Of a stretch of 24,438 nucleotides of DNA, positions 20,267 to 24,438 are shown piece after piece. This stretch comes from a virus. Taxonomy: Duplodnaviria; Heunggongvirae; Uroviricota; Caudoviricetes. The DNA lies in the IMG/VR virus record IMGVR_UViG_638341084_000009; one strand, 5' to 3'. The notes beneath the pieces are model-generated. The model was not told where the DNA came from, did no database searches, and saw nothing but the letters and a program-made list of their open reading frames with translations. The position numbers and the translations under genes are program-made. Every line of letters begins with the position of its first letter. The stretch's first letter is position 1.

Positions 20267-20581
20267 TTAGCATTTTTTTGACCGCGCGTTTCCGGACGTA
20301 TTCTGTTCTCCTGTCCCTTTATATCGTCGGAATACCCGCCGCTCTTCAAATCCCATTCCCAACTCAGAATGTAGTCTGTTGACCGCTTGTTTTATTTCGG
20401 TCAGGTTCACCGGTGAAACCGGAGTCCGGCGCGCCTTACGCAAACACTCTGCTCGTTTCTGTGCCGCCACTTTTCTTTTCTGGTCATCACTTAGCTGTAC
20501 CATCACTTTTGCCCATCGTTCAGCTGCTCTCCGGTACAGTCCTTTTTTCTCCAGACATTCTGCCACGTGATCATGTAGCAT
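20267..20581 (-). CDS. PerC-like (Pch-family) putative transcriptional activator, phage moron
   Basis: ATG at 20579-20581 with GGAGG RBS 7 nt upstream. 104 aa, MLHDHVAECLEKKGLYRRAAERWAKVMVQLSDDQKRKVAAQKRAECLRK…; the AE-LE--GL-RRAA-RW--VM N-terminal pattern matches my recollection of the PerC family. Gene is well supported; family assignment is from memory. Confidence 0.55.
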   Translation of the reverse strand: MLHDHVAECLEKKGLYRRAAERWAKVMVQLSDDQKRKVAAQKRAECLRKARRTPVSPVNLTEIKQAVNRLHSELGMGFEERRVFRRYKGTGEQNTSGNARSKKC

Positions 20582-21045
20582 AAGTGACCTCCGATTATCT
20601 ACAGACTGCCATCCTGAATTTACCTTCCCTTAATGAAATAACAATAAAAAACAAACCACGCAAAAACAATAAAACAACACACAAAAAAACTAAATAATAA
20701 ACAAAAATAATCACCTTATTTTATTATTTTTTGAGGGAGCAATTACTGAACAAAAAACGCTGACTATATACTCAAAACCAAACAACTATTCTGCCAATCA
20801 GGTATCATGGCAACACACGGAATTACCGTGTTTTTGCCTTCTCTGCCCATACAATACGGGCATATACTTCATTCTCTATTGTAATATTTCTATCCATGTG
20901 CCCCACTCCATTTACCTGTAAATAATATTCAAAATATTTATCACAGAAATCGTTTTTGGCCATGAACTGAGCACACTATAAAGTCCGGAACTGACTCTTT
21001 GTTAAATTACCTTAACGTTACCAGTAACACCTTCATAACAAAACA
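20582..21045. other. 464 bp AT-rich non-coding spacer between Rz and the PerC-like gene, with a strongly A+C-skewed tract at about 20636-20715
   Basis: GC content visibly far below the flanking phage genes (about 60 percent A in places). 20641-20700 contains 1 G and 5 T in 60 nt. No ORF of 60 aa or more on either strand. Probable promoter/leader for the PerC-like gene. Confidence 0.5.
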
Positions 21046-21513
21046 TCACGGTATACACTGGGTACGGATATATTCCTGTGCTCCTTCCAGTTGCTTCTGC
21101 ATTGCCATCAGCCGTTCTCTGAGGATGAAATAATCCCGTTCAGCGGTGTCTGCCAGTCGGGGGCCGGTTGCATTATCCACGCCGGAGGTGCCGGTGGCTT
21201 CACGCACGGTACCGGAGCAGGTGGCGTTGATCCGCAGGCGCTTACGACCAGCGGCAACATCAGCACGCAGAGTTTCATTTTCAGCTCTCGCATCGGCTAA
21301 TTCCCTCGAGTATCTGGCATCAAGTGCAGCGACATCACGCTGACGCATCTGCATGTCAGTAATTGCCGCGTTCGCCAGCTTCAGTTCTCTGACATTTTTG
21401 TCGCGCTGGGCTTTGTAGGTAATGGCGTTATCACGGTAATGATTCAGCCCCAGACTAAGCGCACCACAGGCCACCAGCAGGGCAATGATGACCACGCACA
21501 GTACGCGGTTCAT
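21046..21513 (-). CDS. Rz: Inner-membrane spanin subunit Rz (i-spanin)
   Basis: 155 aa, [66 protein letters not shown]… nearly colinear with lambda Rz. Confidence 0.9.
21108..21293 (-). CDS. Rz1: Outer-membrane lipoprotein spanin subunit Rz1 (o-spanin), embedded in the +1 frame of Rz
   Basis: 61 aa, [61 protein letters not shown]: lipobox LVVSAC, Pro-rich, matches lambda Rz1, and is fully nested in Rz. Confidence 0.8.
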
Positions 21514-21514
21514 T

Positions 21515-21613
21515 TCACCACCAGCGTATCTGACCGATGAAATAACCGGAGGCCATAATCACAAACACCAGCCAGATAAGAATGAACTTCCAGGTGGATA
21601 ATTTTTCAGCCAT
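21515..21613 (-). CDS. Hypothetical 32 aa single-pass membrane peptide, translationally coupled to Rz
   Basis: ATG at 21611-21613 with [41 protein letters not shown] has one hydrophobic helix. Its stop TGA sits 1 nt before the Rz ATG. No homolog recognised from memory, and a short ORF could be fortuitous. Confidence 0.35.
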
Positions 21614-21691
21614 CACTCGAATCTCCCGAATCAGTTTGCTAAAATCAAACACACTTTCTCCTTTGACTTTTCCGGAGTCAGGAAACACAAA

Positions 21692-21723
21692 ACCCCCGCT
21701 TGGTGCCAACAAACGGGGTTTTT
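21692..21723 (+). terminator. Hairpin with T-run in the R to Rz intergenic gap (candidate plus-strand or weak bidirectional terminator)
   Basis: Stem CCCCGCTTG / CAAACGGGG (8 of 9 pairs) with 7 nt loop, followed by TTTTTACTTTT on the plus strand and preceded by an A-rich tract. Confidence 0.35.
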
Positions 21724-21812
21724 ACTTTTATTCACTTACGTTTCGCCAGTTCGCAGGATTTCATGTTATCCGCCCGCGTGGCCATGCCTTATTTTTCAGC
21801 AAAATATTCTGC

Positions 21813-22346
21813 TTATCTGTCGATACCCCAGCACGCCAGCGCGCTCTCCTGGTCACGACGGGATACCTGACCGTAGCAGTTGTTTGAACGAATACGGCAG
21901 TCTCTGCCACCGTCCTTAATCCACCAGCGAATCGCCTCACACGCTCCCCTGCGATCACCTGCATTAATTCGTTTATAAAACGTCGACGGGAAACACTTAC
22001 CGGGACCAATGTTGTACGGACAGAATGACGCGATCCCCGCTTTCTGGGGTTCGCTCAATGGCACTTTGATGTTTTTCTCCACCCATGCCAGCGCCTTATC
22101 ACGCTCAATGGCGTTGACCTGGTCGCATTTTTCCTTCGACAGTTTCATACCGGGAAAAACGGGTTTTCCATCCACCATCGTGGCCCCCCGACAGATGGTC
22201 CAGATGCCGGAACCATCGCGGTATGCCGTTGTGTGGTTACCCTCTTTTTCGTCCAGAAACTGGTCAAGTATCTGAGGAGCAGACGCGCCTGCAGCAATCA
22301 GCGCCAGAACAGCAGCTGACAGGCCGTATTTGATTTTTGCGCTCAT
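21813..22346 (-). CDS. R: SAR endolysin (phage lysozyme, T4-lysozyme/GH24 type with N-terminal signal-anchor-release domain)
   Basis: 177 aa. N-terminus MSAKIKYGLSAAVLALIAAGASAPQ is a weakly hydrophobic Gly/Ala-rich SAR-type segment. Followed by an E…D/C…T triad region (EGNHTTAYRDGSGIWTICRG) and …RRDQESALACWG, resembling phage 21 R and DLP12 RrrD. Confidence 0.85.
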   Translation of the reverse strand: MSAKIKYGLSAAVLALIAAGASAPQILDQFLDEKEGNHTTAYRDGSGIWTICRGATMVDGKPVFPGMKLSKEKCDQVNAIERDKALAWVEKNIKVPLSEPQKAGIASFCPYNIGPGKCFPSTFYKRINAGDRRGACEAIRWWIKDGGRDCRIRSNNCYGQVSRRDQESALACWGIDR

Positions 22347-22401: not shown

Positions 22402-22716
22402 CTAACAACACGTAATCGAGTTATCAGAACTGTTAATTTTTATGGTATTCCGCGCCTCTGAACAGGGGCGCGTTTCTGGCAACAGCTCGTCCTCTTCACA
22501 TAACCCGGCAGCAACATCCAGGAAGACCTGTCTGATGCTCCTTCTGGCTGCTGCCTCATAAAACTCCAGCGCGGCACCTTCAACACGGTCCAGCGAGATG
22601 TCCAGGTCAAAAATTTCACCGTCAAAGCGTTTTTTGTCCCGTAACGCTAAAGTTACCGTAACTTTATTCTCAAAATTGCGGATCCCTTTCACAATCAGTT
22701 CATAGTTTTGAGTCAT
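22402..22716 (-). CDS. YdfR-like protein (DUF1327-like) of unknown function, inserted between holin and endolysin
   Basis: 104 aa, MTQNYELIVKGIRNFENKVTVTLALRDKKRFDGEIFDLDISLDRVEGAALEFYEAAARRSIRQVFLDVAAGL…. Strong GGGGAGAG RBS, 4 nt after the holin stop. No predicted TM segment. Same location as ydfR in E. coli Qin (essQ-ydfR-rrrQ), as I recall it. Confidence 0.65.
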   Translation of the reverse strand: MTQNYELIVKGIRNFENKVTVTLALRDKKRFDGEIFDLDISLDRVEGAALEFYEAAARRSIRQVFLDVAAGLCEEDELLPETRPCSEARNTIKINSSDNSITCC

Positions 22717-22720
22717 TGAA

Positions 22721-22936
22721 TTACTCTCCCCGTGCAGCCTTACGACGGTCCTCTCTGATTTTGAAATACAGGTTAGTCAGATATGTCAGCAGCCCAAACA
22801 GCAGACTCCCCAGCACGCCTATTGCCGCCCACTGAGACGGGGAAACCCTGTCCAGCAACTGCAGGAACCAGTAGCCCGTTCCCACCGCTGACGTGGTGTA
22901 TGACACACCTGTTGTGATTTTTTCCATCTGGTACAT
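22721..22936 (-). CDS. S: Class II pinholin (S21-like) with dual-start motif
   Basis: [71 protein letters not shown], nearly colinear with phage 21 S21 as I recall it. Met1-Tyr-Gln-Met4 gives the antiholin/holin dual starts at 22936 and 22927. The ORF-track start at 23014 is an upstream over-extension. Confidence 0.85.
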
Positions 22937-22971
22937 ACCCCGTCTCCCGTTATCCGGAAGCTGACAACAAT

Positions 22972-23002
22972 AAAAAAAGCCACCAGTTAAGTACTGATGG
23001 CT
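22972..23002 (-). terminator. Rho-independent terminator on the late (minus) strand between the esterase gene and S
   Basis: Minus-strand stem AGCCATCAG / CTGGTGGCT (8 of 9 pairs, 7 nt loop) followed by TTTTTTT. An A-run precedes it on the plus strand. Confidence 0.55.
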
Positions 23003-23086
23003 CTGATAACTCATGCAGGCATCTCAGACGACCCACTGACACTACCGGTGAGTTTAACGATACCTTCCATTTGACTGGCTCACTTT

Positions 23087-24438
23087 TTATGATGATGCCG
23101 GTGCATTTATCTCCAGCACCAGACTTTCTATCTCAACGCCATACGCTGCATTTTTGGTAATATCCGTCAGCGTCAGCGCATTCAGCCCCAGTGTCAGACT
23201 GTCTTTTATGACCTGGAATGCCGGGCCAGCCACTCCATTCAGTTTCGGAGTAACCGTGGCACTGCCGGCGGTGAACACCAGCTCCAGCGTCTGCCAGTCG
23301 TTACCGTAATCGCCGAACTCCCCCAGCTTCGTGTTTCCGGCTTTCCTGTGATGCATCAGATTCACTCTGCCGTCAGTGGTCTGAGTGAAGTGCGACATCA
23401 GGAACGGATTACCGGTACCCGTCATCGCCACACCATCAGGAACGGGAGCGTCCGTATACAGATAAATCCCCAGCCCGAACTGATTGTTGGTCAGTGCGCC
23501 TGAGAGGCGGAACTTACAGGTCAGTCTGCCGCCCTGTGTCAGCAGGGTAATTGCGTCATCCACCGGATGCATCAGGGACCAGGTTTTATTGCTCTGCTTG
23601 GTGATCTTAAATACACCATCTGACAACTGAATTCCGCCGTCCTTAATGGTCCAGCCCTGCGCAGCAGCATCTCCGGCTGTCGGCATCAGGGAGATTGTGC
23701 GTATGGATGCATCTTCAGACGGCCCCGATGGCGTGTTGCCGCCGGGCGAGGGTTTGATTTCCGGTGCCTTACCACTGATGAAGGCTGAGGTGCGCCCGGC
23801 TGCGTTCAGAATAGCGGTTGCCAGACGATCCGGAATAATGCTCCTGCGCGCCCATGAACTGAAATGTGTCGGGCGGTTTGATGATACCTGGTTTCCATTC
23901 GTTCTCGATGCCGCACCGTAATATCCTGATGCCGGAATATCCGGATCTTCTGCCGGCGCGTTAGTGGCGGTATTGACGCCGTTACCGTCTGTCATGAAGG
24001 GCACAAAATAAACGCCCTCACTCTCCCTGTTTTTATACCCGCCGTACACGGTGTCGTACTGGGTAGCGTATGTATTTTTCCAGTAATACGTCGTGTCACC
24101 ACAAATCCACGGCACATCTGCAGCACTGCCACCATGACACTGCGCGTTAAACACAGTGAGGTCAGCACGAAACTGCTTCAGCATGGCTGTAAACAGCGCA
24201 GGTTGCTGTGCGTAGGTGGCGGCGCTCATGTCAAACTCTCCCTGCATCCAGCACACCGCCAGCAACACATTTTTCGGGTTCTTCTGTAATGCAGCTTTAG
24301 TGCGCGCAATCAGGTCCTGATATAACGGTTTACCCACCCCCCAGCGCGCCGAATCCTGGCTGGCCCCCGCGTCCGCACTGAATGTCCCCTCCGCGCCCTG
24401 GGTGAATGCCGAACCACCACGACAGCATGGTACCAGCA
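23087..24438 (-). CDS. SASA-domain esterase-like protein (NanS-p / sialate O-acetylesterase-like prophage protein), 5' partial (N-terminus beyond window)
   Basis: Minus-strand frame is open from the window edge with no stop: …SAFTQGAEGTFSADAGASQDSARWGVGKPLYQDLIART…VLLAVCWMQGEFD… then a long Gly/Thr/Ser-rich C-terminal domain ending …EINAPASS. The position directly upstream of the holin matches nanS-p-type genes in Stx-type and other EHEC prophages. Assignment is from memory of that family. Confidence 0.5.
   Translation of the reverse strand, partial: LVPCCRGGSAFTQGAEGTFSADAGASQDSARWGVGKPLYQDLIARTKAALQKNPKNVLLAVCWMQGEFDMSAATYAQQPALFTAMLKQFRADLTVFNAQCHGGSAADVPWICGDTTYYWKNTYATQYDTVYGGYKNRESEGVYFVPFMTDGNGVNTATNAPAEDPDIPASGYYGAASRTNGNQVSSNRPTHFSSWARRSIIPDRLATAILNAAGRTSAFISGKAPEIKPSPGGNTPSGPSEDASIRTISLMPTAGDAAAQGWTIKDGGIQLSDGVFKITKQSNKTWSLMHPVDDAITLLTQGGRLTCKFRLSGALTNNQFGLGIYLYTDAPVPDGVAMTGTGNPFLMSHFTQTTDGRVNLMHHRKAGNTKLGEFGDYGNDWQTLELVFTAGSATVTPKLNGVAGPAFQVIKDSLTLGLNALTLTDITKNAAYGVEIESLVLEINAPASS

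What the first reader, a model, noticed from the sequence alone, without database searches (positions are those of the whole stretch)
21515..21613. Unannotated 32 aa membrane peptide gene coupled to Rz
Between the endolysin and Rz (a 300 bp gap that is zero in lambda) there is a short ORF with a good RBS (GGGAGA), a single hydrophobic helix ([19 protein letters not shown]) and a stop codon 1 nt before the Rz ATG, which suggests translational coupling. A small membrane protein inside a lysis cassette could be an extra lysis timing regulator, a spanin-associated factor or a membrane-acting moron. Short ORFs like this are easily missed by automated annotation.
Basis: seen in the sequence. Interest (0 to 1): 0.45.

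Follow-up and report, generated by a model that had tools for sequence, protein, structure and literature searches.

The report
Mobile 45-residue phage membrane protein gene
The short reading frame between the endolysin and Rz genes is a real, conserved gene for a tiny membrane protein of unknown function; it travels between phage genomes as a small cassette with its own upstream terminator hairpin, and databases already list it as a hypothetical protein.

Summary
It is a real gene. Codons 15-45 have dN/dS of about 0.13 with saturated synonymous change, and only this frame stays open. The conserved gene is longer than reported: 45 codons from a GTG at 21652 in 174 of 175 loci, matching PHROG 6632 end to end (function unknown). 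RefSeq sometimes annotates it as a hypothetical protein. The gene is one part of a portable cassette: an intrinsic-terminator-like hairpin with covariation, a stem that occludes the Shine-Dalgarno sequence, then the ORF. This cassette sits between endolysin and spanin genes (four endolysin families). It also occurs in baseplate, tail-fibre, tail-tip and head gene clusters across Enterobacterales and more distant prophages. It is therefore not specific to lysis cassettes. The predicted protein is an amphipathic helix followed by one membrane helix. My best reading, which is inference, is a tightly gated, late-expressed, membrane-active accessory peptide. An antisense-RNA (type I toxin-like) arrangement is not excluded. 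No experimental literature was found. Interest is moderate.

The parts
21515..21652 (-). Conserved 45-codon ORF (GTG start, TGA stop): (M)[44 protein letters not shown]. It is a member of PHROG 6632.
   Evidence: Full-length hit to PHROG 6632, E 1e-29. 45 codons in 174 of 175 loci; the start is GTG in 47 and TTG in 2 of 49 unique sequences. dN/dS is 0.13 in codons 15-45. AlphaFold2 predicts helices at 4-17 and 20-44, mean pLDDT 82.
21515..21613 (-).
   Evidence: ATG at codon 14 in 49 of 49 unique sequences. By my reading of the sequences, Met is kept at the aligned position in about 20 of 22 distant homologues.
21622..21627 (-). Internal Shine-Dalgarno-like GGGAGA, 8 nt before ATG14, lying within codons 9-11.
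   Evidence: Codon 9 is only CGG or AGG among Arg codons and codon 10 is GAG in 48 of 48, so GGAG is present in 48 of 49 unique sequences. AAGGAG lies 6-9 nt before the internal ATG in 3 of 6 distant homologues.
21656..21664 (-). Shine-Dalgarno sequence AAAGGAGAA for the GTG start.
   Evidence: Read from the sequence. A purine-rich AAGGGAGAA or AAGGAGAA motif sits at the same place in homologues.
21657..21685 (-). Small stem-loop (UUUCCUGAC...GUCAAAGGAGAAA) that pairs the Shine-Dalgarno sequence of the GTG start.
   Evidence: Predicted in the window and in most homologues, with different arm sequences: CCUUG/CAAGG, CCUG/CAGG, CGUUA/UAACG, CCUUCUG/CAGAAGG. Mean pairing probability of the Shine-Dalgarno sequence is 0.68, against 0.50 when the upstream arm is shuffled.
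21683..21723 (-). Intrinsic-terminator-like hairpin: A tract, GC-rich stem at 21718-21694, then the T tract GTTTTGTGTTT. It forms the left end of the cassette.
   Evidence: Terminator scan hit on the minus strand. RNAalifold finds 8 pairs with compensatory changes on both sides. The hairpin is present 35-45 nt upstream of the start in all but one of the loci inspected, including six distant homologues. The sense-strand fold is more stable in 44 of 55 unique sequences.
21635..21646 (+). Candidate antisense extended -10 promoter element TTTGCTAAAATC, on the opposite strand to codons 3-6. Hypothetical.
   Evidence: Codons 3-6 (GAT-TTT/ATT/CTT-AGC-AAA) keep a single third base: one synonymous variant (AAG at codon 6) among 49 unique sequences, and dS 0.03 against 1.85 in codons 15-45. 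No transcript evidence exists. The consensus promoter scan did not report it.
21511..21517 (-). Junction TGA-A-ATG between the small ORF stop and the Rz start.
   Evidence: The 1-nt spacing holds in 127 of 127 Rz contexts and in 1 context with a different i-spanin.
21046..21513 (-). Rz (i-spanin) with embedded Rz1 (21108-21293). This is the downstream neighbour.
   Evidence: PF03245, E 3e-49; ORF list.
21813..22346 (-). Phage lysozyme (endolysin). This is the upstream neighbour.
   Evidence: PF00959, E 2e-24.

Best explanation
Shown: the locus is a real gene for a 45-residue protein of the uncharacterised phage family PHROG 6632. The protein is predicted to have a short cytoplasmic amphipathic helix, one transmembrane helix and a periplasmic ...RWW end. 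It belongs to a compact portable cassette of about 210 bp. The cassette consists of an intrinsic-terminator-like hairpin, a small stem that occludes the Shine-Dalgarno sequence, a weak GTG start, an invariant in-frame ATG at codon 14 with its own conserved GGAG, and a stop placed right at the start of the next gene. The cassette has been inserted, always in the sense orientation, at many different junctions of late gene clusters in temperate phages. Here it sits between the endolysin and Rz. Inferred: no promoter was found inside the cassette and it begins with a terminator, so the protein is probably made only from late-operon transcripts that read through the terminator, not in the resting lysogen. 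Translation probably starts at two sites, giving 45-aa and 32-aa forms, and ribosomes finishing the ORF reinitiate on Rz. Such tight gating suggests a membrane-active peptide that is harmful if made early. I think it most likely acts on the inner membrane late in infection, for example by modulating lysis timing or membrane energisation. This last step is a guess.
For: Coding: dN/dS is 0.13 with dS 1.85 in codons 15-45, and only this frame is open. Length is fixed at 45 codons in 174 of 175 loci. Family: PHROG 6632 matches positions 1-45 of 45. A profile search of 1.84 billion proteins finds 55 representatives, all 24-86 aa. Structure: two helices, pLDDT 82. Cassette: the hairpin shows covariation and is kept even in distant homologues. 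The Shine-Dalgarno-occluding stem has co-varying arms. GC dips to 0.43, against 0.51-0.62 in the flanking genes. Mobility: the cassette lies between four endolysin families (PF00959, a 138-aa type with no Pfam hit, GH19, GH108) and three putative spanin types. It also lies after gpV, a tail fibre, MuF/LPD38, gpK and Ant, before gpJ, and between head genes. An empty site exists: K-12 Qin rrrQ and rzpQ overlap with no gap. Dual start: ATG14 is present in 49 of 49 sequences, GGAG in 48 of 49 through rare Arg codons, and GAG is never GAA. Coupling: 1-nt spacing in 128 of 128 i-spanin contexts. No sense promoter.
Against: There is no expression, localisation or phenotype data of any kind. Literature and supplement searches found nothing. 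The cassette is as much at home in tail and head modules as in lysis cassettes, which weakens a lysis-specific role. A strong sense terminator in front of capsid or baseplate genes would be costly unless late transcription there is antiterminated, and that was not checked. The frozen synonymous sites in codons 3-6 and 11-12 are not explained by this model. The internal start is inferred only from conservation. Many of the sampled loci are close relatives, so the counts overstate independence.
Confidence: 0.5

Rival explanations
1. The cassette is a type I toxin-antitoxin-like module. The small hydrophobic peptide is a toxin. A cis-antisense RNA of about 80 nt starts from an extended -10 promoter on the opposite strand inside codons 3-6 (TGcTAAAAT, window 21637-21645 +). 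It runs across the GTG and its Shine-Dalgarno sequence and ends at the hairpin, which would then act as a bidirectional terminator. The RNA blocks translation of the long form in lysogens.
For: Synonymous sites of codons 3-6 are almost invariant (dS 0.03 against 1.85 downstream), and they spell TTTGCTAAAATC on the opposite strand. A second frozen block, codons 11-12, lies 17 nt upstream of that -10 on the antisense strand. A -10-like hexamer recurs there in most distant homologues, for example TGCTAGAAT in L181 and TGATAAACT in L190. The A-rich left flank AAAGCGAAA, which reads as a U tract on the antisense strand, is conserved across the family. The hairpin is also stable on the antisense strand, mean -19.7 kcal/mol. 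This model explains why hairpin and ORF always travel together.
Against: No transcript evidence exists, and Rfam has no family here. The -35 is poor (3 of 6), and the consensus promoter scan did not call the site. The hairpin is more stable on the sense strand in 44 of 55 sequences, and by eye the cleaner T tract is also on the sense strand. AU-rich early codons and -10-like hexamers are common by chance. The toxin has no promoter of its own, unlike known type I systems. There was no hit in PADLOC.
Confidence: 0.17
2. It is a classical lysogenic-conversion moron. The membrane peptide is made in the lysogen and benefits the host or prophage, for example by superinfection exclusion at the inner membrane, as HK97 gp15 does.
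For: It is a small membrane protein with low GC relative to its neighbours. It is inserted between otherwise adjacent late genes at many positions. In some distant homologues it stands alone among toxin-antitoxin genes in accessory regions.
Against: No sense promoter was found inside the cassette, and conservation starts only about 10 nt before the hairpin. A terminator sits in front of the gene rather than behind it. The start is a GTG with an occluded Shine-Dalgarno sequence. The stop abuts the next late gene. All of this points to late-operon expression.
Confidence: 0.15
3. The protein has no role for the phage. The cassette is a selfish or neutral passenger, and its hairpin and reinitiation-friendly 3' end merely make insertions tolerable.
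For: It occurs in many unrelated junctions with no consistent partner gene. It is absent from many close relatives such as K-12 Qin, and in Sakai Sp15 the slot holds a different insert.
Against: Strong purifying selection on the peptide has persisted over saturated synonymous divergence, and the length is fixed. The family is kept from Escherichia to Yersinia, Pantoea, Sodalis and more distant prophages.
Confidence: 0.1
4. It is a chance ORF in a non-coding spacer that merely contains the terminator of the endolysin gene.
For: The ORF is short, has no Pfam or NCBIfam hit, and is unannotated in most records.
Against: dN/dS is 0.13, the other frames are closed, the ORF is 45 codons in 174 of 175 loci, there is a PHROG family, and the same ORF occurs in unrelated genomic contexts.
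Confidence: 0.02

Closest known systems
PHROG 6632 (phage protein family of unknown function) and RefSeq WP_000459345.1 'hypothetical protein'
   Same: The 45-aa product matches the 45-position profile end to end (E 1e-29). The RefSeq protein is the same ORF from the same GTG.
   Different: Nothing differs. This is the family it belongs to. The family has no described function, structure or regulation.
Phage morons (for example HK97 gp15, lambda bor and lom)
   Same: It is a small accessory gene with lower GC than its neighbours. It is inserted between late genes that are adjacent in related phages and is found at many positions. It encodes a membrane protein.
   Different: Morons are defined by their own promoter upstream and a terminator downstream, which allow expression from the prophage (my knowledge of the literature). 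This cassette has the terminator upstream, no detectable promoter, and a stop fused to the next gene's start.
Dual-start holin/antiholin genes with an upstream regulatory stem-loop (lambda S107/S105 with the sdi structure; phage 21 S71/S68)
   Same: It is a small membrane protein, here inside a lysis cassette. It has two conserved in-frame starts and an RNA stem that covers the Shine-Dalgarno sequence of the first start. The features of lambda S and S21 are cited from my knowledge of the literature.
   Different: There is no sequence similarity and no holin Pfam hit. It has one transmembrane helix, not two or three. The starts are 13 codons apart rather than 2-3. It is often located far from any lysis gene. 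The window already has an S21-type pinholin at 22721-23014.
Type I toxin-antitoxin systems (hok/sok, tisB/istR, zor/orz and others)
   Same: The peptide is hydrophobic, single-helix and under 50 aa. It has a structured 5' leader that hides the Shine-Dalgarno sequence. A possible antisense promoter overlaps the 5' end, and a bidirectional-looking terminator is present.
   Different: There is no toxin promoter, no demonstrated antisense RNA, no homology and no PADLOC or Rfam hit. It is embedded in the sense orientation in phage late operons.
ECs_5741 of Sakai prophage Sp15 (48-aa hydrophobic ORF just upstream of Rz)
   Same: It occupies the same endolysin-Rz slot, is similar in size and hydrophobicity, and ends 7 nt before Rz.
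   Different: The sequence is unrelated by eye, and it arrived with an antirepressor gene. It shows that this junction is an insertion hot spot and says nothing about function.

Membership tests
PHROG 6632 | Full-length match to the family profile HMM | tested here: met
   E 1.2e-29, protein 1-45 to profile 1-45 of 45. Two divergent homologues also match, E 4e-24 and 4e-23.
Phage moron | Extra gene inserted between genes that are adjacent in related phages | tested here: met
   K-12 Qin rrrQ and rzpQ overlap with no gap. The same cassette occurs between unrelated gene pairs.
Phage moron | Nucleotide composition distinct from neighbours | tested here: met
   GC is 0.43 over 21500-21724, against 0.51-0.62 in Rz and the endolysin.
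Phage moron | Own promoter upstream, allowing expression from the prophage | tested here: not met
   No sigma-70-like site on the sense strand near the cassette. Sequence conservation across contexts begins only about 10 nt before the hairpin, leaving no room for a promoter. A consensus scan cannot exclude unusual promoters.
Phage moron | Terminator downstream of the gene | tested here: not met
   The stop lies 1-15 nt from the next gene's start in most contexts. The terminator-like hairpin is upstream.
Holin / antiholin (dual-start type) | At least one transmembrane domain in a small protein | tested here: met
   Residues 23-40 are hydrophobic, and AlphaFold2 predicts a helix at 20-44.
Holin / antiholin (dual-start type) | Two functional in-frame translation starts | tested here: inconclusive
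   The GTG/TTG start and ATG14 are both conserved, and GGAG before ATG14 is kept at synonymous sites. Use of either start has not been shown.
Holin / antiholin (dual-start type) | Homology to a described holin family | tested here: not met
   No Pfam or NCBIfam hit. The window's holin is the PF04971 gene at 22721-23014.
Holin / antiholin (dual-start type) | Consistent linkage to an endolysin gene | tested here: not met
   Many loci are in baseplate, tail or head modules.
Holin / antiholin (dual-start type) | Timed lethal membrane lesion or inhibition of one | not testable with these tools
   Needs lysis curves and membrane-potential assays.
Type I toxin-antitoxin | Small hydrophobic toxin peptide | tested here: met
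   45 aa with one transmembrane helix. Toxicity itself is untested.
Type I toxin-antitoxin | Antisense RNA gene with promoter and terminator overlapping the toxin mRNA | tested here: inconclusive
   A conserved TGnTAAAAT lies on the opposite strand, and the hairpin is stable on both strands. However, the -35 is weak, there is no Rfam hit and there are no transcript data.
Type I toxin-antitoxin | Toxin transcribed from its own promoter | tested here: not met
   No sense promoter found.
Spanin components (Rz/Rz1) | Homology to Rz (PF03245) or another i-spanin family | tested here: not met
   No Pfam hit for the 32-aa or 65-aa translation at E <= 0.01, while the neighbouring gene hits PF03245 at 3e-49.

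The most novel reading that the evidence does not exclude
The cassette is a self-contained, portable expression-gated toxin unit not yet described in phages. It encodes a dual-start membrane peptide whose long and short isoforms act like an antiholin/holin pair, or a toxin and its modulator. Two locks keep it silent in lysogens: an upstream intrinsic terminator that only antiterminated late transcription can pass, and a cis-antisense RNA fired from inside its own first codons. It can be dropped into any late operon because its last codons restore initiation of the downstream gene.
Probability: 0.12. Interest if true: 0.7.

Novelty: new member of a known kind. Interest (0 to 1): 0.4.

Why it matters
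Part or all of the 441-bp stretch spanning the endolysin 3' end, the cassette and the Rz start matches 2072 of 5426 complete E. coli genomes. 871 of them carry at least 80% of it. The same stretch is found in many Shiga-toxin phages. Despite this, the gene is annotated inconsistently: absent, 32, 45, 65 or 72 aa. Fixing the gene model at 45 aa from the GTG, with a possible 32-aa isoform, is a practical gain for annotation. If the peptide does modulate the inner membrane late in infection, it would be an unrecognised variable in lysis timing of Stx phages, and so in toxin release. The architecture (terminator, occluded Shine-Dalgarno sequence, two starts, frozen synonymous sites) also makes it a compact test case for how small accessory genes are inserted into phage operons without breaking them.

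Tried and rejected
- Pfam, NCBIfam and PADLOC scans of the 32-, 45- and 65-aa translations gave no hit.
- Rfam gave nothing at gathering threshold on the whole window. At E <= 10 on 21400-21900 there were only sub-threshold leader and terminator look-alikes.
- Full-text searches for the RefSeq accession and for peptide strings returned nothing.
- The supplements of the Sakai small-gene ribosome-profiling paper PMC5597208 had no occurrence.
- Keyword searches on lysis cassettes, morons and R/Rz found nothing relevant.
- K-12 was checked in case this was one of the characterised K-12 small proteins. The Qin lysis region has no such gene, because rrrQ and rzpQ overlap.
- Sakai Sp15 was fetched in the hope of mapping published transcript data. 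It carries a different insert in this slot, so that route was dropped.
- A sense-strand promoter within the cassette was looked for by scan and by eye and not found.
- The 65-aa (TTG) and 72-aa gene models used by some annotators are rejected. The region upstream of the GTG is the hairpin and spacer, it varies with indels, and it is not open in other contexts.
- Fold search was not attempted, because a two-helix 45-mer gives meaningless matches.
- A profile search of 1.84 billion representatives found only other small proteins (24-86 aa) carrying this domain. That library holds no names, and none of the 82 proteins from the named-database search had a functional name.

Full report
**Observation.**
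The lysis cassette lies on the minus strand. In order it contains:
- an S21-type holin (22721-23014, PF04971);
- a DUF1327/YdfR gene (22402-22716);
- a phage lysozyme (21813-22346, PF00959);
- a 299-nt gap;
- Rz (21046-21513, PF03245) with embedded Rz1 (21108-21293).

The ATG is at 21613, GGGAGA lies 8 nt upstream, the product is [32 protein letters not shown], the TGA is at 21517-21515, and one base later comes the Rz ATG.

**It is a real gene.**
- Part or all of the 441-bp stretch spanning the endolysin 3' end, the gap and the Rz start matches 2072 of 5426 complete E. coli genomes, and 871 carry at least 80% of it. It also matches many Stx phages, including H-19B.
- tblastn and protein searches found diverged copies (47-88% identity) in Salmonella phages SPN3UB, FSL SP-016 and SEN34 and in Escherichia phage Rac-SA53. 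Further copies are in genomes of Citrobacter, Yersinia, Pantoea, Brenneria, Sodalis, Symbiopectobacterium, Providencia, Trabulsiella, Enterobacter and Klebsiella.
- From 175 loci I extracted 49 distinct ORF sequences. In codons 15-45, synonymous differences are saturated (pS 0.69, dS about 1.85) while non-synonymous differences are few (pN 0.21), giving dN/dS of about 0.13. The five alternative frames contain 0.8-2.2 stops per sequence.

**The gene model is 45 aa, not 32.**
That start is GTG in 47 and TTG in 2 of 49 unique sequences, and here it is at 21652 with AAAGGAGAA 3 nt before it.
- PHROG 6632, a 45-position family of unknown function, matches it end to end (E 1e-29).
- RefSeq annotates the same 45-aa ORF as hypothetical protein WP_000459345.1 in some genomes, including 6 of the 25 best hits. 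Other records leave it out or aa.
- In six more distant homologues the long form starts with ATG in five and GTG in one, and it keeps the same amphipathic pattern. The N-terminal segment is therefore translated.
- AlphaFold2 with a 23-sequence alignment gives helix 4-17, a break at residues 18-19, and helix 20-44 (pLDDT 82). The charge distribution suggests N-in, C-out. That topology is inference.

- Codon 14 is ATG in 49 of 49 unique sequences.
- Codon 9 uses only CGG or AGG among the six Arg codons, and codon 10 is GAG 48 times and never GAA. GGAG therefore sits 9 nt before ATG14 in 48 of 49 sequences.
- By my reading, Met is kept at this position in about 20 of 22 distant homologues. AAGGAG lies 6-9 nt upstream in three of six distant loci.
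- The first start, by contrast, is a weak codon whose Shine-Dalgarno sequence lies in a predicted stem. That stem recurs with different arm sequences: CCUUG/CAAGG, CCUG/CAGG, CGUUA/UAACG, CCUUCUG/CAGAAGG.
- Mean pairing probability of the Shine-Dalgarno sequence is 0.68, against 0.50 with shuffled upstream arms. The sequences are related, so the p-value is only indicative.

**The gene is part of a cassette.**
- A GC-rich hairpin flanked by an A tract and a T tract lies 35-45 nt upstream of the start in every locus but one, including six distant homologues. In the window it spans 21683-21723.
- RNAalifold finds eight pairs with compensatory double changes. The terminator scan calls it on the ORF strand.
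- The fold is more stable on the sense strand in 44 of 55 unique sequences, though it is also stable on the other strand (mean -22.3 against -19.7 kcal/mol).
- Conservation between different contexts starts only about 10 nt left of the stem, and no sense promoter is detectable.
- GC drops to 0.43 across the cassette, against 0.51-0.62 in the neighbours.

**It is not specific to lysis cassettes.**

Clustering the flanking genes and scanning them against Pfam shows two groups of contexts.

Between an endolysin and a putative spanin:
- four endolysin types upstream: PF00959, a 138-aa type with no Pfam hit, GH19 and GH108;
- three types downstream: Rz, a 177-aa type and a 93-aa type.

In structural gene clusters:
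- between baseplate gpV and the next baseplate gene (SEN34, Rac-SA53, Pantoea, Yersinia);
- after a tail fibre with an S74 chaperone domain;
- after a 1294-aa MuF/LPD38 protein;
- after gpK (NlpC/JAB);
- before gpJ;
- after an antirepressor.

More distant homologues sit among toxin-antitoxin genes upstream of a terminase, or between MuF and scaffold/capsid genes. K-12 Qin shows the empty site, because rrrQ and rzpQ overlap. In Sakai Sp15 the slot holds a different insert: ant plus an unrelated 48-aa hydrophobic ORF.

**Coupling to the downstream gene.**
In all 127 Rz contexts, and in one with another i-spanin, the stop is 1 nt before the start. Elsewhere the distance is usually 3-25 nt. The terminal codons TGG-TGG-TGA resemble the 3' part of an extended Shine-Dalgarno sequence. 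The RWW end is also kept where the next gene has its own Shine-Dalgarno sequence, so it is probably a protein feature as well.

**An unexplained signal.**
- Synonymous sites in the first 13 codons are about six-fold more conserved than downstream (dS 0.31 against 1.85). In codons 3-6 they are almost frozen (dS 0.03). Codons 11-12 are also fixed, with the rare Arg codon CGA in 49 of 49 sequences.
- GGAG explains codons 9-10.
- On the opposite strand, codons 3-6 read TTTGCTAAAATC, an extended -10 motif. Codons 11-12 fall 17 nt upstream of it.
- A transcript from there would cover the GTG and its Shine-Dalgarno sequence and end at the hairpin, about 80 nt in all. This is the layout of a type I toxin-antitoxin or a P22 sar-like antisense control.
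- It remains a hypothesis. The -35 is weak, the scan did not call it, Rfam has nothing, and AU-rich early codons are an alternative explanation.

**Interpretation.**
- Shown: this is a conserved gene for a 45-aa bitopic membrane protein, a member of PHROG 6632. It is carried on a small portable cassette with a structured leader, and here it is inserted between the endolysin and Rz.
- Inferred: expression comes only from late transcripts that pass the terminator. There are two translation starts. Ribosomes reinitiate on Rz. The protein has a membrane-active late function.
- The recurrence at the endolysin-spanin junction with unrelated partners hints at a lysis-related role. However, mosaic recombination around a single insertion can explain part of that pattern, and the tail and head contexts argue against a strict link.

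**Novelty.**
No experimental literature was found, and none of the 82 database homologues has a functional name. The family's existence is therefore already recorded, while its function and regulation are not.

Noticed in passing
L180 14749-15464 (Sakai prophage Sp15), compared with window 21515-21812: In Sakai Sp15 the same endolysin-Rz slot holds a different insert: an antirepressor gene (ECs_2967) plus an unrelated 48-aa hydrophobic ORF (ECs_5741) that ends 7 nt before Rz. Both inserts begin right after a shared '...GTAAGTGAATAAAGT' segment. The junction looks like an insertion hot spot that repeatedly acquires small membrane ORFs.
   Followed up: partly
L004 1696-1806 (Salmonella phage SPN3UB): An unannotated 36-aa hydrophobic ORF (MSKRDVSALCFLMAAAVAISGNDGWGWLIFAGIIIL) overlaps the endolysin stop codon (ATGA), upstream of the cassette. 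It has no Pfam hit.
   Followed up: partly
window 21617-21622 and 21635-21646 (codons 11-12 and 3-6 of the small ORF): Synonymous sites are frozen: the rare Arg codon CGA in 49 of 49 sequences, and GAT-TTT/ATT/CTT-AGC-AAA with one synonymous variant. The protein does not explain this. The only idea so far is an antisense promoter (-35 and extended -10).
   Followed up: partly
window 20267-20581 (-): A PerC-family transcriptional activator gene (PF06069, E 4e-44) lies downstream of Rz in the prophage late region. PerC/Pch-like regulators are of interest in EPEC/EHEC virulence control.
   Followed up: no
window 20640-20745: A long A-rich, low-complexity tract on the plus strand (repeats of the AAAAACAA type) lies immediately upstream of the PerC gene.
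   Followed up: no
window 22402-22716 (-): A DUF1327/YdfR-family gene is wedged between the pinholin and the endolysin, as in K-12 Qin (essQ-ydfR-rrrQ). This is another uncharacterised resident of the lysis cassette.
   Followed up: no
window 23087-24337 (-): A 416-aa ORF with a partial SASA (sialate O-acetylesterase) domain and DUF6645 lies just upstream of the holin. RefSeq calls the homologue a SASA family carbohydrate esterase.
   Followed up: no
L181 3930-3960, L184 3935-3975, L190 about 2925-2965: The A-rich left flank of the hairpin, AAAGC[GA]AAA, is conserved in sequence even in distant homologues whose ORFs share only about 45-50% identity. This suggests that the flank itself is functional, for example as a U tract for a transcript from the opposite strand.
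   Followed up: partly
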